64,000 nucleotides of DNA, taken from the NCBI GenBank assembly GCA_030324005.1, contig JARDVH010000121.1, positions 9,991,059 through 10,055,058 on the forward strand, written 5' to 3'. This DNA is from Negaprion brevirostris (lineage: Eukaryota). Below are positions 27,001 through 63,000 of the stretch, one piece after another (within the stretch, counting starts at the first letter, position 1; every line of letters begins with the position of its first letter). A program made the position numbers.

Positions 27001-30000
27001 TATTATGCATCTCATTCTTCCGTTTTCTTTATTTTTTAATTACAGCTTCTCATCCGCCTTCCAAGTTACTTCATATCAAGTGCACCACATTCAAGTTCAA
27101 CATACCATATTATATTAAGTTGCTATACACCCCTTTCCCACGGTAGTGCCACCAGTTACGTGCTGCCAGGATGTGAATCTCTCCTACTTGCATCATGCCT
27201 TAAACTTTCTGCGCATGTAATAGTAATGGATATGATTGCTGTTTTCCTTATTATTTTAGTGGAATTGTTCTGGTAGAAATGTTAGTTCTATTCTTCGAAT
27301 GAACTAAACGATCATGATTTCAGCAATTGTTACTATCAAGTCCCACTTTGGAGTTTCATTCTGAGCTTCCCAAAATATATCTTCGAAACTCAATACATGT
27401 TCACTCGGTCCAAAGAGAGAACGAGGATTTTTGGATCACGGACTTCTGAATGCAGGATGTTCTTCACGTCCCCAATAGTTTTTTTTTGTGTTGGCGGCAG
27501 GAAGGCAGGATGTACGATAATATATAACAAAGGTAACAAAAAAAAACTCTGTCCCTTCGAATATGGGATCTTTCAGAACTACTGTATCGCTAATTTTAGA
27601 AGTTGCATCCCGTGATGCACTTCGTGCTTTCTTAAGACAAAACTAATGATTTAGGCATAGTATGTGTTAATAGAAGAAATATTTCAGTCCATTTTTCTTA
27701 ACCGAATTGAATCTTCGAACATGCTATCCAAGTTCGCTGTTTTGGAAACTGAAGACTGTTCCGTCGACGATGAGATTTACAAATTATAGCAATATGCGCT
27801 TAACTGACTTTGTGATTCTGCTCAATCGTTCAGCAAGATCACCCCGATCCAATTGTAACTTCAACATTGCATTCCCGCCTACCACCGCTGACCGTTCACA
27901 CCCTTGTAAATCGCACATCCAAATAAAATCTGCAAAATAAATTTAAATTCTCCTCACATTATATTTGCAGAAAGAGCGCCCCCGAACACACTTGCATTGA
28001 AGAGCGATGAAAAATAGTATTTCAGAAATGTGCATCATCGTCTTAAACAAGGGAAACTACCTAATCACGTAAACTGGCAATATCTCTCAGAATTTTGAAG
28101 TTTTTGAAAAACACAGTTACGAATTAGCAAATTGTCTTTCACTAAAAAGAGATGAAATGACATGTTTGACTAAAATCCTTAAAGATGTTAGTTATCCACC
28201 CTTAGTGATAACTTTTACATTTATTTTCATTTATTTTCATGTACGGATCTATTCCTGGACTATCTCTCTGTCCAACATAGGCCTCCACATTTTGATCAGG
28301 AAAGCCAATGGAAATAGTTTTGATGCGAATTAGATGTTCCAGAAGTCACGTTCTCAAATGGATTATTATTTAATCGAATAATTGAAGATGAGATGAATAA
28401 AAAGAATGAAGGTAATCAATCAATGAGATTTCGGGACAATGTTTCCTCATTTCATCTTCGAGTTAAACAGAAAAATAAACTCTAAAATTATGTGGCGCTC
28501 GGGAGTGAATGCAAATCGTGTCATTATTTTGCCAATTGTCTCACTGCAGTTCCCAGCTAGCGAAATATGTTTTCTTGCACACAAATTGTAGTTTCCTGCA
28601 GTTCAGTCAGTTAATCCAAAACGATATCTCTCCAATTTTTCTCTTGGGCAATGGCGTTAACCATAGTTTCTGAATGCTGTTAAGAACTGCATTTCGGCAT
28701 TTTGTGTCATCAGTGTATGTCTTTGCGGTGGGTACGGCTCTTTAGGTTACATAGAGAATGAAATTTGAAGTGTGTTTTGTACTATAAACAAAGCCACTAC
28801 AACATAATACTTTTCCTGCAGGATATGTTTGCTGCCTGGCTTGGTAGGATTGGGGCCAATGACTGTTGCACACTCTGTCCAACAACTTCCCGCATCTTCC
28901 CTCATTCACCCATTCACCACGTGACCACCTCAATTTTCAAAACTGCAATTATTGGAAGGACAAATTTTATCAGATTTAAAAATGTGAATTAATGTTTCGA
29001 AGCGTCCGTCATGAAATCAGCAGCGCGTATTGGTTTTAATTATTCAAGGATTTGAGGACTTTGTTTATGATACATGTAAAGTGTGGCATCTTCTCCCGAA
29101 AAAAAATATAAACTGTTGCATCTTGTACATAAAGATGCCATGTTTGCAGATGAAATTTTTAGGGCCAAAGTTTCTTCGCCATACTTATGTTGCAGCTTGG
29201 CTTTAGATTTCCATGCCAAAGTGGATTAAAGTGACTGCTTTCCTATCCATGGATAATGAATCATTTCAAAAGCTGTTGTCAATATTTTTTCTTCATTTCA
29301 GATATTACTGATGCCAACAAAACGTTGAAAGAAGCAGGTCTGAAAATGCATCTTGATATTCGAGATTTGAACACCATCAATTCACAACATTTACATTGTC
29401 ATATACTTGCCGAGCCCTCAGTGTTCCCGAAAGTTCAATATGGGTGTTTACAGTGTCAGCAAACCGATTTGACGAGCAGCAAACGTATTATTGTCAGTTC
29501 TGTTGAAAAGTTATAACACATCCAACAGAATTGTGCTGATCCAAGGAATATATGATTTCTCTCGGGATGTTTTAATGTTGTTTATTATGATGTCATATCC
29601 AAATGTATACGCCATAGATACATGTTTGAAGGAAAAGATCATCTTTGTTTGATCAAACATGAAAAAGGAAGCGCTAAATCTATAAATGCGATTGTCGGGG
29701 AGGAAGCAGAATGCAAAAGAAACGATTCAGCAATACCAGTAACCAACATGCCACACCTATCATTTTCTGCCATGCAATCAGTTGACGGCTGAAATCACTT
29801 TGCATTCAACTTCACTGGACTGATTTCCGCTATGTTTCCTTTTCGGTTCCCGTTCCTGTCTAAAATATATCGAGCTCTTTCTTAAACAAAAAACAATTCC
29901 CCCGCCTGATCGTTTCGTTGGGGAATATAACTGCAAAAGCGCACTGTGCCCTGTGAGAAACATCACTACCGCCTGCATGTATATTTCGGAAATTCCCGAT

Positions 30001-60000: not shown

Positions 60001-63000
60001 GCTGTTCGAAATGTAGGGAGAACAAGGCCACATCGTCATATTTTCTCAGCACTTACTATTGTCGCCAACGTCACTCCCAGTACATTAGCAGATACTGCCC
60101 CAAAGGTAGATACCGTGGAAACGGAGGTCAGTGTTTTGATTACCATGATACTTTCCCTATCAATATTGTCTTCAGAAGAAACAGACAGAAGCATTAGGAC
60201 GCTTTTGAATGCGATATTTTATTGTATTTGCACACGAACTTGCGATCATCTCTCTATCTTGGACCGCATACAATTGCGGAAAAACATAAATTAAAATAAT
60301 TAATTTGATCTCATTCGACTGTAAATTGACACACGTATTGTAAAAAATTAGCACAATGAATTGTGAAGCAATGACCAAATATGCANNNNNNNNNNNNNNN
60401 NNNNNNNNNNNNNNNNNNNNNNNNNNNNNNNNNNNNNNNNNNNNNNNNNNNNNNNNNNNNNNNNNNNNNNNNNNNNNNNNNNNNNNNNNNNNNNNNNNNN
60501 NNNNNNNNNNNNNNNNNNNNNNNNNNNNNNNNNNNNNNNNNNNNNNNNNNNNGCGGGGGGTGCGGTGGGAGAACAACTTTGGAGATGGGCGGAAAGACAG
60601 GTGAGTGATTTGATGTGTTTTAATGCAGTTTAAATATGTTTTCACTGTCATTACCGGGAACTTGTCGGTGCGGATTGAATTTTCCAGCACGCTAGGAGCA
60701 CTTAAGCCCGGCCAGATTTAGAGGTGCTCCACACGTTCGGGGAACTAGTGGAAGGCCCCACCGTAATGAAGCGGGGCAATCGGGGTCCAAAAAGAGATCA
60801 TTTCGGGAAAGTTTTGTCAATGTTATCTTCGAAAAAAAAATCAGCAACAGCCGTTTTAATATTTAGCATGATGAATTGAATGCGAAGTGTATATTTGTTT
60901 TTGCTAAGCTCTTCAGTGCAGTTTCCGTGGCTAGCAAACTCTTCGTTATTCAAATTGACGTTTTCTTTCCTGCAAACTTGAACAGTTCTCTTTTGCAGTG
61001 TGTTACACTTAGTCATGCTGTTGTTCACTTGGAAATGAGCTGAGCTCGTGTCCATGAGAATAGACACAAGGAGCCATTTCATGGCGAACAGCAATGGGCG
61101 AACAATTGTCTTGCCACTGTTAGTGCTGCATCAAACTATACCATCCTTGTACATTTTCACATTCTTCAATCTCCAGTTTATTTTTAACAATATATTTGCC
61201 GCTTTCTCTTTCTCAACTCGAAATTCAACATGGTACAGTCATACAGTAGTGGGTTATCGTTAACATTTGCTTACAAATTCAGTCATATGCTAAGGCAATG
61301 TTTCCCACAATAGAGGATTTTATATGTGCACTGAGAATCAATTCTGGAGCATTCGGAACAGTCTCCAGTCCTCCAAAATTCCAGTAAGATCCATGATGTT
61401 GAACAGCAAAGTCGCCGAGAGTCATGCCAGCCATAGACAAGCCCTCCCAGTTTCCACCCTTGCTATAAATCTGAACTTGTTCAAGATTTATGATTGTCGC
61501 TATTTTTGTTCTCCTGCATCGGATCTAACTGTAGTATTGCATGCTAAGACTTGGAGCCCATTGTGGATGGTAAACCCCAGATGAAGTCCGAGATGCAAGT
61601 TATTCGGGGGTGCCGTACCATTTTACACTGTTTACCATGTCTTACATCCAAAAGCTAATTTAAGGCAGATATTCCGTTTGCAGCTTCCACAAATTTTGGA
61701 TTTGTTCCTAAACAGAAAACAGGCCATATCACTTAATCCAGTTTTAACAAATGCAGCTTTCCGTTTGCTCTCTGTTCAGTCGCTCTGTCAACCTGCCATC
61801 GGTGTTGTGGATGGCTCTATAGACTGCAACATGTCTTTGAAGCTGTTTCTGTGGCAATCTGGAAAAGTATATTTCACACAATAAAAGTGTGCTCCCTATG
61901 AATAACAAACAGTCCCGTTATCTTATGGGAGACAATCAAAATGAAAATACGTTGCCTACACATACTTCAGCCTCAAAAAATCTCTGTTGTCACTCCTCTA
62001 ATAATCAAAATGTGGGCATGTAGCACAATATTTTGTTCGTGAATTCACATTGAGAAATGTATTCCACCAGCAAGGTTTTACTGACAGTGTTAGTAACGTT
62101 CATATTTCAGAAAATTTGCATGGAAAGATCATGAGTAGATGAGTTGCAAATGTCTGCTGCTTCAATACCTTAGGATTTCAAAGGAGGGTTGCAAAATTAT
62201 GCGAAGTTATTCGACAAGAACATATTTTATTTTCGTCTGTAAGATTGAAAATGTCGAATGATGTGTTTTCGAATGGTTATGTTTCAGTAGAGATAGCGAA
62301 TTGATTCCGTTCATTGATGTTTCGATCGTGCATTGTCTCAGCTGAGTTTGTCAATATTCTCAAATACCCGGTCCTATGAGATGAATTCTCATCCGTTTCG
62401 TCGCTCATTTATCACACACCCGAACATTTTCAGTTTTATAAACGGCGTCTTCACAGCGGCATTTCACGTTTTCTGCGGTATTTTAGAACTTGCATCCATA
62501 CGGAAGGCTGTAGAATGCATTTTTTTCACTGTGACCAAGAAACCTGCTTAACCTTTCCTTTGTTTCGTGTATTTTGTCTAGTTCTCAATTCACTGAAACA
62601 CCAACCATTCTTCTCATTATGAGTTTTTTTATATATTCAAATAATTTTCGAGATATTTCAGCATAAAAAAACAGCATTTGATTGGCCCTTGTTCCACCAA
62701 AGTGAAATTGCACTTCCCTTCCCCTGAACTATGCGTTTAAAGGGCAATGACGTTTGCGGTTACAATTACTCTTGGGAATCATTAAACCCATGGCATGTTG
62801 TTTTAGTTCATCTTCTGTTACATCTAAAAACGTGAACTAATTTACCTTTTTATACACTCCTAATGTAAGCTCAGAATATGAGGATGAGGTGCGTCCCTGA
62901 ATCGCAGCCAATCCTGTGGCGCAGTTTGAAACATCTCACGGTCAAATCGAATGATTATGCGCTTAGCTGAGCCATAGTGAAGGAATATGAAATGTGTTTT

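What the first reader, a model, noticed from the sequence alone, without database searches (positions are those of the whole stretch)
28388..62134. Splice-site decay confined to the distal part of the array, with reading frames still open
Seen: all seven exons up to 20997 have GT donors. Beyond that there are a deleted pyrimidine tract (28388), a +1 length change (41528), GT>TT (56367), a lost donor (58189) and a shortened copy (62111), yet none contains an in-frame stop. The damaged 56367 (36 nt) and 58189 (27 nt) are adjacent and sum to 63 nt. Inference: symmetric exons can be skipped without frameshift, and losing a 36+27 pair also keeps the heptad register, so rod length may be tuned by exon silencing. 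The alternative is a pseudogene in decay.
[Added by the scan's program, not by the reader: the finding's places include an assembly gap (unread letters, written N; its length is only estimated) at 37493 to 37502, 38186 to 38285, 46231 to 46672, 50145 to 50402, 51631 to 51695, 55015 to 55114. Whether the letters on both sides are continuous or in frame is not known: test that first.]
Basis: partly seen in the sequence, partly recalled or inferred. Interest (0 to 1): 0.7.

Follow-up and report, generated by a model that had tools for sequence, protein, structure and literature searches.

The report
Two-exon coiled-coil module array with dead copies
The window holds a long run of tiny duplicated exons that code for a repeating helical rod segment, and a few of the copies have lost their splice signals, which is the ordinary gain and loss seen in duplicated exon arrays and is not limited to one end.

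Summary
The + strand carries a real array of about 21 homologous micro-exons. A 36-nt type alternates with a 27/24-nt type. All are in phase 1-1, so each pair codes a 21-residue, heptad-like amphipathic unit.

AG..GT shape alone is at chance level. The array rests on paralogy that includes intron flanks, strict alternation (p 0.0004), one strand, exact length conservation, and excess change at third codon positions.

The one at 41528 is ambiguous, because an AG 5 nt upstream gives an open 42-nt exon. 28388 shares its weak acceptor with its paralogue. 62111 has no similarity support.

"Confined to the distal part" is wrong. Copy 832 has no GT, 1885 has no GT and an in-frame stop, and 36112 has a GC donor. 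That is 2 of 11 proximal against 3 of 11 distal copies without GT (p 1.0).

Two adjacent donor-less copies are expected by chance (0.40 to 0.67). No assembly gap touches a copy.

Gene identity is unknown. The most likely reading is birth and death of exon modules in a gene that is, or recently was, functional. Interest is modest.

The parts
832..867 (+). 36-nt type copy (NTTCKKALEDL). AG acceptor, followed by AT instead of GT. The frame reads on to a stop near 915.
   Evidence: nhmmer E 0.0032 with a profile that did not include it; 24 of 36 identical to 6895; boundaries.
1139..1165 (+). 27-nt type candidate (CKLNDKQK), AG and GT present; weakly supported.
   Evidence: Best hit in its slot, but only E 0.19; table.
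1885..1920 (+). 36-nt type copy with an in-frame stop and no GT donor (dead copy in the proximal part).
   Evidence: nhmmer E 0.13 window-wide and 0.004 in its slot; 23 of 36 identical to 6895; chance 0.009 in the slot; translation.
5146..5172 (+). 27-nt type copy (KQLESKED), AG and GT intact.
   Evidence: nhmmer E 0.15 with a profile that did not include it; sequence; table.
6895..6930 (+). 36-nt type copy (LNECKKDLEAS), AG and GT intact.
9130..9156 (+). 27-nt type copy (DSLKLKEN), AG and GT intact.
   Evidence: nhmmer E 0.021 with a 3-copy profile that did not include it.
13019..13054 (+). 36-nt type copy (LTSCTRSIKGL), AG and GT intact.
17864..17890 (+). 27-nt type copy (EKLKIKED), AG and GT intact; closest paralogue of 58189.
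   Evidence: BLAST 210 nt at 59%, E 1e-7 to the 58189 region; alignment A1.
19024..19059 (+). 36-nt type copy (LIACKASVKVL), AG and GT intact.
19829..19855 (+). 27-nt type candidate (EKWEAKDE), AG and GT present, poor pyrimidine tract.
   Evidence: nhmmer E 0.1 window-wide and 0.045 in its slot.
20962..20997 (+). 36-nt type copy (RKMSDDVERRL), AG and GT intact; paralogue of 59333.
   Evidence: BLAST 202 nt at 57%, E 4e-8; alignment A6.
28388..28411 (+). 24-nt short-type copy (EMNKKNE), aag acceptor with a weak tract, GT present; paralogue of 45822.
   Evidence: BLAST 35 nt at 77%, E 0.006.
29302..29337 (+). 36-nt type copy (ITDANKTLKEA), AG and GT present (GTCTGA, non-consensus at +3).
   Evidence: BLAST 124 nt at 69%, E 1e-16 to 49227; alignment A5.
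36112..36138 (+). 27-nt type candidate (GKLKSTEE) with a GC donor instead of GT; weakly supported.
   Evidence: Best hit in its slot, E 0.36; sequence; table.
41184..41224 (+). Possible relic of a 36-nt type copy, with no AG and no GT.
   Evidence: nhmmer E 0.4 window-wide and 0.022 in its slot; sequence. Could be chance.
41523..41564 (+). GT present.
   Evidence: alignment A6; profile support is weak (E 6.6 window-wide, 0.36 in its slot).
43071..43097 (+). 27-nt type copy (EKLKGKVK), AG and GT intact.
   Evidence: Alignment A1.
45822..45845 (+). 24-nt short-type copy (ESNKNSK), aag acceptor, GT present.
49227..49262 (+). 36-nt type copy (RIDTKEKLEEA), AG and GT present (GTCAGA).
   Evidence: alignment A5.
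56367..56402 (+). 36-nt type copy (LDNYNATLKES). Good acceptor, open frame, donor dinucleotide not GT.
   Evidence: nhmmer E 2.8e-7 as a seed; alignment A5 with 29302 and 49227.
58189..58215 (+). 27-nt type copy (EMLRIKDD). Good acceptor, open frame, no donor. Differs from its paralogues at several bases there, so not a single-base call error.
   Evidence: Alignment A1; BLAST to the 17864 region, E 1e-7.
59333..59368 (+). 36-nt type copy (QKNSDESSKEI), AG and GT intact.
   Evidence: alignment A6.
62111..62134 (+). May be chance.
   Evidence: No hit; chance rate of such shapes.

Best explanation
The window lies inside one large + strand gene of a non-human animal genome.

**Shown.**
- It holds a tandem array of a two-exon module: a 36-nt exon followed by a 27-nt (sometimes 24-nt) exon, each in phase 1-1.
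- One module codes 21 residues rich in Lys, Glu and Leu, with no Pro. Hydrophobic residues recur at 3-4-3-4 spacing.
- Copies have diverged under protein-level constraint.

**Inferred.**
- The product is an alpha-helical coiled-coil rod or stalk.
- The array grew by repeated segmental duplication of exon-plus-intron blocks.
- Individual copies die by losing a splice signal or gaining a stop. They then sit in the intron as pseudo-exons while the neighbours splice past them, in frame.
- Dead or doubtful copies lie at both ends of the array, so this is scattered birth and death of exon modules, not a distal decay front.
- A conserved Cys in four proximal copies and several N-x-S/T sites hint at an extracellular, disulfide-linked stalk.
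For: **The array is real.**
- Paralogue pairs share intron flanks: 29302~49227 (124 nt, E 1e-16), 20962~59333 (202 nt, 4e-8), 58189~17864 (210 nt, 1e-7) (alignments).
- The 15 best hits of the 36-nt profile (E up to 9.2) are all on the + strand.
- ATTAGGTAA occurs 4 times on +, with 0.61 expected on both strands together.
- The two types alternate: 2 same-type neighbours of 20, permutation p 0.0004.

**It is coding.**
- Over 8 paralogue pairs, pS is 0.66 (28.2 of 43 sites) against pN 0.32 (57.8 of 182), Fisher p 9e-5.
- The other two forward frames give a ratio near 1 and contain stops.
- Over all pairs, third codon positions differ more: 0.59 against 0.48 for the 36-nt type and 0.60 against 0.34 for the 27-nt type.
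- Exon length is exactly 36 in 10 of 11 long copies, and 27 or 24 in all short ones. The aligned flanks, by contrast, carry indels.

**Helical pattern.**
- Hydrophobic residues sit at columns 1, 4, 8, 11 in 5, 6, 7 and 7 of 9 long copies, and at column 3 in 8 of 8 short copies.
- There are 0 Pro and 3 Gly in 163 residues.

**Splice signals.** 17 of 22 catalogued copies keep AG plus GT.
Against: - No other part of the gene (signal, membrane span, globular domain) was found in the window. Pfam gave nothing above threshold on 248 + strand and 118 - strand open segments.
- No related protein was found. With the single-exon alignment, 926 word-sharing candidates were scored and none reached E 10. 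The full-library profile search gave 1 hit, and it is spurious. PDB gave 0 hits.
- Many donors are weak: only 6 of 17 GT donors have G at +5, by my reading of the table.
- 5 of 22 copies lack GT, one has a stop, one has an odd length, and two slots in the alternation are empty.
- The antisense frame that shares wobble positions shows the same substitution pattern, so strand choice rests on the splice signals.
- One - strand hit (57196-57224, E 0.021) scored as well as some + strand candidates.
- Copies 1139, 36112, 41528 and 62111 are weakly supported or unsupported.
- No coiled-coil prediction or fold was run, because the exons were not joined.
Confidence: 0.55

Rival explanations
1. The whole locus is a pseudogene, or a dying duplicate of such a gene. 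It was coding for most of its history and is now decaying everywhere, and the intact copies are simply not hit yet.
For: - 5 of 22 copies have no GT. There is one in-frame stop, one length change, two empty slots and one possible relic.
- Lesions lie at both ends.
- No matching protein was found in 5.8 billion clusters or 1.84 billion representatives.
- Donors are generally weak.
Against: - 17 of 22 copies keep both signals. Of the 21 similarity-supported copies, 20 have a length that is a multiple of 3 and none has an internal frameshift, despite about 35-45% nucleotide divergence.
- Copy 58189 differs from 17864 mostly at synonymous sites (Sd 3 of 3.3 sites, Nd 3 of 20.7), so its constraint lasted until recently.
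- The protein searches had little power: the profile is 11 columns wide and the species may be absent from the libraries.
Confidence: 0.27
2. One reading: selection tunes rod length in units of three heptads by silencing 36+27 pairs together, and the distal array is where this happens.
For: 56367 and 58189 are neighbours, both lack donors, both stay open and together sum to 63 nt. The hydrophobic pattern has a 21-residue period.
Against: - Neighbouring donor-less copies are expected by chance (0.67 for any pair, 0.40 for long then short).
- The other lesions are unpaired: 832, 1885 and 36112 each have intact neighbours.
- 24-nt exons already break the register in three units.
- Lesions are not confined to the distal part (p 1.0).
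Confidence: 0.1
3. The lesions are consensus errors of a draft assembly and the array is intact.
For: - There are 11 gaps in 64 kb, two of them with duplicated edges, which shows draft quality.
- The lesions at 832, 36112 and 56367 are single-base differences from GT. The one at 41528 is a 1-nt length difference.
Against: - 58189 differs from its paralogues at several bases at the donor.
- 1885 has two separate defects.
- The two empty slots are not all explained by gaps: there is no N between 43071 and 45822.
Confidence: 0.05
4. This is not a gene at all. It is a non-coding tandem or interspersed repeat whose copies look like exons by chance.
For: AG..GT open shapes of these lengths occur at chance rate on both strands. 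Some catalogue members have only weak similarity.
Against: - Third-position excess of change and no stops occur in one forward frame only.
- Copies keep exact lengths and sit on one strand.
- The two types alternate strictly (p 0.0004).
- Similarity ends at or near the AG and GT in old pairs, while the flanks have decayed.
Confidence: 0.03

Closest known systems
Tandem exon duplication arrays in large modular genes (obscurin, nebulin, titin), including unannotated exon-like copies inside introns
   Same: Neighbouring exons are homologous and of equal length. They arose by rounds of genomic duplication that carried intron sequence along. Some homologous copies in introns are not used as exons. 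(PMC9013439: abstract and passages read. [quoted passage not shown]
   Different: Here the exons are micro-exons of 24-36 nt, and two types alternate, so the duplicated unit is an exon pair. The product is a heptad-like helix, not an Ig or nebulin module. The gene is unnamed.
Coiled-coil neck of CD23 (FCER2) and related type II C-type lectin receptors
   Same: An alpha-helical stalk with heptad a/d positions that sets the reach of a receptor head (PMC6791321: passages read). From recall, not seen in a call: the CD23 neck is built of 21-residue repeats, each on its own 63-bp exon, and the repeat number differs between species.
   Different: The 21 residues here are split over two exons. No lectin-domain motif or Pfam hit is in the window. 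No sequence similarity to any such protein was obtained. This is a likeness in design only.
Cassette-exon genes with one shared phase (elastin, titin PEVK, collagens): recalled, not tested
   Same: Many small exons all split codons the same way, so any of them can be left out without a frameshift.
   Different: The composition here is Lys/Glu/Leu-rich with 0 Pro and 3 Gly of 163 residues, so it is none of these.

Membership tests
Tandem exon duplication array | Neighbouring exons on one strand that are homologous to each other beyond chance | tested here: met
   BLAST pairs with E from 1e-16 to 1e-7 that include flanks. The 15 best profile hits are all on +. Alignments A1, A5 and A6.
Tandem exon duplication array | Same length class and same phase, with splice signals at the homologous borders | tested here: met
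   10 of 11 long copies are 36 nt, and all short copies are 27 or 24 nt. 21 of 21 supported copies end in G (41528 read as 41523-41564). 17 of 22 copies have AG plus GT.
Protein-coding sequence under constraint | Excess of synonymous over non-synonymous change in one frame | tested here: met
   pS 0.66 against pN 0.32, Fisher p 9e-5. The other forward frames give a ratio near 1 and contain stops. The third-position excess also holds over all pairs. The sample is small: 43 synonymous sites.
Alpha-helical coiled coil | Heptad a/d hydrophobic pattern, with few helix breakers | tested here: inconclusive
   Hydrophobic columns are spaced 3-4-3-4, but the sixth core position of each 21-residue unit is charged (7 of 8 copies). 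There are 0 Pro. No coiled-coil predictor or fold was run, because the exons were not joined.
CD23-like type II lectin receptor neck | 21-residue repeat, each carried on one 63-bp exon (recalled) | tested here: not met
   The period is 21 residues, but it is split into 36+27-nt exons.
CD23-like type II lectin receptor neck | C-type lectin domain downstream and membrane span upstream, in the same gene | not testable with these tools
   Neither is in the window (Pfam; motif scan). The rest of the gene lies outside the 64 kb, and no eukaryotic genome collection was on hand.
Pseudogene (whole locus) | Disabling changes spread over most of the coding parts | tested here: not met
   6 of 22 copies are damaged (5 without GT, one of which also has a stop, plus one length change). 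16 are undamaged. This does not exclude a recent death of the gene.
Collagen or elastin type cassette exons | Gly-X-Y, or Gly/Ala/Val/Pro-rich exons | tested here: not met
   3 Gly and 0 Pro in 163 residues.

The most novel reading that the evidence does not exclude
An unannotated gene of a non-mammalian vertebrate codes for a very long, disulfide-linked, glycosylated coiled-coil stalk. The stalk is built from a dozen or more two-exon, 21-residue modules. Its length evolves, and may be varied by splicing, in whole modules, because every exon shares phase 1-1 and every junction codes Asp or Glu. The paired loss of 56367 and 58189 would then be a fresh example of in-register shortening.
Probability: 0.12. 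Interest if true: 0.55.

Novelty: new member of a known kind. Interest (0 to 1): 0.3.

Why it matters
If the gene is expressed, it is a clean natural case of a helical spacer assembled from interchangeable micro-exon pairs. The case is useful for asking how rod or stalk length is set and changed in evolution. It also matters for annotation, because micro-exons of 24-36 nt are routinely missed.

The decay is scattered, not distal, and the 63-nt pairing has no statistical weight.

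Tried and rejected
- **Splice-shape scan alone**. At chance level, so it was dropped as evidence.
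- **Whole-window self-BLAST**. Mostly interspersed repeats; only 29302~49227 from the array.
- **Exon-only profiles without flanks**. Too weak to find new copies.
- **Search for the missing copies.** I looked for a long copy between 43097 and 45822 and a short copy between 49262 and 56366. Nothing convincing turned up.
- **Pfam.** On 248 + strand segments of 50 aa or more and 118 - strand segments of 62 aa or more, only sub-threshold chance hits appeared. Shorter segments were not scanned.
- **Lectin-domain motif scan** from recalled short motifs. Nothing.
- **Protein searches.**
  - Alignment A4 has a first row that is a 40-aa contiguous translation, and its other 9 rows are single exons. It gave 926 candidates, none at E 10 or better.
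  - The full-library profile search gave 1 hit, P0001. It matches the intron read-through part of row 1, repeated ten times, and was rejected as spurious.
  - PDB profile search: 0 hits.
  - Atlas search on residues 14-40 of 795-914: only unnamed short clusters.
- **Reverse-transcriptase-like intron relic** used to place the lineage: no hit.
- **Rfam and tRNA scans:** 0.
- **Papers.** Four searches found no description of a 36+27-nt exon-pair coiled-coil array. This does not show that none is in print. Supplementary files were not consulted.
- **Copy 832 as a longer exon or a terminal exon.** Extending it to the GT at 906 gives 74 nt and breaks the phase. No poly(A) signal lies within 500 nt of the stop. 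Rejected.

Full report
**Source and limits.**
- The window is 64 kb, about 39% G+C, with CpG observed/expected of 0.68-0.87 in every 4-kb block.
- From general knowledge, human DNA is near 0.2. I do not take the contig for human.
- Some interspersed repeats and a degraded reverse-transcriptase-like relic in one intron reminded me of cartilaginous-fish repeats. That is recall only. A protein search with the relic found nothing.
No search, fold or coiled-coil prediction was run on joined exons. This limits what can be said about the protein.

**Gaps first.**
- There are 11 N runs. None lies within or next to a catalogued copy; the nearest is 145 nt away. No reading frame in question crosses a gap.
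- Two gaps (3547-3653 and 38186-38285) are flanked by exact 42-nt and 52-nt overlaps. They are closing artefacts.
- Gap 55015-55114 has flanks collinear with two other copies of one interspersed repeat, so its sides belong together.
- The other eight could not be tested.
- The intervals 45845-49227 and 49262-56367 hold 442 and 433 N and could hide copies.

**Is there an array?**
- Exon shape alone is worthless here. An AG, a pyrimidine tract, a length that is a multiple of three, an open phase-1 frame and G|GT occur as often on the minus strand and in shuffles as on the plus strand. For 36 nt the counts are 8, 8 and 5.1. For 27 nt they are 14, 8 and 6.6. For 24 nt they are 7, 6 and 7.9.
- What is beyond chance is similarity.
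  - Three pairs share exon plus intron flanks: 29302~49227 (124 nt at 69%, E 1e-16), 20962~59333 (202 nt, E 4e-8), and 58189~17864 (210 nt, E 1e-7) (alignments).
  - Profiles built from some copies find others that were left out: 832 (E 0.003), 9130 (0.021), 19829 (0.1), 1885 (0.13) and 5146 (0.15).
  - The 15 best hits of the 36-nt profile are all on the + strand.
  - One - strand hit (57196-57224, E 0.021) covers mainly the pyrimidine-tract part of the model.
  - ATTAGGTAA, the exon end plus donor, occurs 4 times on +, against 0.61 expected.
- The catalogue has 22 entries: 11 long (36 nt; one of 37 or 42 nt) and 11 short (27 or 24 nt).
- Long and short copies alternate, with 2 same-type neighbours among the 20 neighbour pairs of the 21 similarity-supported copies (permutation p 0.0004).
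- Support is weak for 1139, 36112 and 41528, and absent for 62111.

**Is it coding?**
- Over eight paralogue pairs, summed pair by pair, synonymous sites differ at 0.66 and non-synonymous sites at 0.32 (Fisher p 9e-5). The other two forward frames give a ratio near 1 and contain stops.
- Over all pairs, third positions vary more: 0.59 against 0.48 and 0.60 against 0.34.
- The antisense frame with the same wobble positions behaves alike, so the strand is fixed by the splice signals.
- In old pairs the flanks have lost all similarity, while the exons keep 55-74% identity and their exact length.
- The family has therefore been a protein-coding exon family for most of its history.

**What it codes.**
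- Each long exon gives 11 full codons, with hydrophobic residues at columns 1, 4, 8 and 11 (5, 6, 7 and 7 of 9 copies).
- Each short exon gives 8 codons, with a hydrophobic residue at column 3 (8 of 8) and column 5 (4 of 8).
- Lys, Glu, Leu and Asp dominate. There is no Pro and there are 3 Gly in 163 residues.
- Of the 21 supported copies, all end in G and 18 begin with A. Any junction, in order or after a skip, therefore gives a GAN codon, Asp or Glu.
- A long plus a short exon is 21 residues with core spacing 3-4-3-4. The sixth core position is charged, so the pattern is heptad-like and not perfect.
- Three units use a 24-nt exon and have 20 residues.
- Four proximal long copies share a Cys at column 4, and four long copies carry N-x-S/T. 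This hints at an extracellular stalk, but it is only a hint.

**The lesions.**
- Confirmed:
  - 56367 has TT where its two paralogues, which also share the next ~25 intron bases, have GT.
  - 58189 has no donor, and differs from its paralogues at several bases there.
- Ambiguous: 41528 is 37 nt from one AG, and in that reading the incoming frame meets a stop. An AG 5 nt upstream gives an open 42-nt exon.
- Not shown:
  - No deletion of the tract at 28388 is shown. Its paralogue 45822 has the same weak aag acceptor.
  - 62111 is not shown to be a family member.
  - 36112 has a GC donor.
  - Proximal copy 832 is followed by AT.
  - Proximal copy 1885 has no GT and an in-frame stop.
  - 41184-41224 is a possible relic.
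- Copies without GT are 2 of 11 up to 20997 and 3 of 11 beyond (p 1.0). Damaged copies of any kind are 2 of 11 against 4 of 11 (p 0.64). The decay is not confined to the distal part.
- With five donor-less copies among 22, a neighbouring pair arises by chance in 0.67 of random placements, and a long-then-short pair in 0.40. The 63-nt sum of 56367 and 58189 carries no statistical weight.

**Gene identity.**
- Pfam found nothing above threshold on 248 + strand and 118 - strand open segments. A motif scan for lectin domains found nothing.
- Single exons are below the search tool's minimum. I therefore used an alignment whose rows are single exons and whose first row is a 40-aa contiguous translation. 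It gave 926 word-sharing candidates, none with E of 10 or better.
- The full-library profile search returned one protein. It matches the intron read-through part of the first row ten times over, and is spurious.
- The PDB and Atlas searches gave nothing useful.
- All these searches had low power, so the gene remains unnamed.

**Reading.**
- The best account is a tandem array of a two-exon helical module, in a gene that is or recently was functional, with scattered death of individual copies (confidence 0.55).
- A pseudogene decaying as a whole is the main rival (0.27).
- Assembly error for all lesions (0.05) and a non-coding repeat (0.03) are unlikely.

**Known comparators.**
- Tandem exon duplication with unused exon-like copies in introns is well described (PMC9013439: abstract and passages).
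- Heptad stalks that set the reach of a receptor head are known, for example CD23 (PMC6791321: passages). Its 63-bp repeat exons are my recollection.
- This finding is a new member of a known kind.

Noticed in passing
window 3505-3546 = 3654-3695; 38134-38185 = 38286-38337: Exact duplicated ends on both sides of two N runs. The two contig ends overlap, so these gaps, and one copy of each duplicated stretch, are assembly artefacts.
   Followed up: yes
window 18605-18833, 47310-47543, 54921-55251 (also 43517-43591): Copies of one interspersed repeat, all on the + strand and each upstream of a 36-nt type copy. I took it for a SINE-like element from recall. It could instead be part of the ancestral duplicated intron block.
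   Followed up: partly
window 37256-38355 (+): Degraded reverse-transcriptase-like relic in an intron, interrupted by two N runs. There is only a sub-threshold Pfam hit (ALKBH8_N, E 0.0038) and no protein relatives were found.
   Followed up: partly
window 32085-32244 and 33446-33607; 3061-3206 and 3731-3875; 34931-35042 and 35641-35752: Three pairs of inverted repeats at 75-88% identity, 0.5-1.2 kb apart. They may be foldback or terminal-inverted-repeat elements.
   Followed up: no
window 56123-56656 (+): The longest gap-free open frame of the window (178 codons stop to stop). It runs through the donor-less copy 56367. It is rich in Phe, Leu and Ile and has no Pfam hit. Probably chance in T-rich sequence.
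   Followed up: partly
window 29338-29349, 49263-49274, 56403-56414: The first 12 intron bases after three long copies are nearly the same. The two intact donors have C at +3, which is unusual for a donor. This may reflect recent duplication or an intronic splicing element.
   Followed up: partly
window 41729-41777: A 21-nt tandem repeat, 2.3 copies at 96% identity, lies 165 nt downstream of copy 41528.
   Followed up: no
whole window: CpG observed/expected is 0.68-0.87 throughout. That is high for a vertebrate genome, if that is what this is.
   Followed up: no
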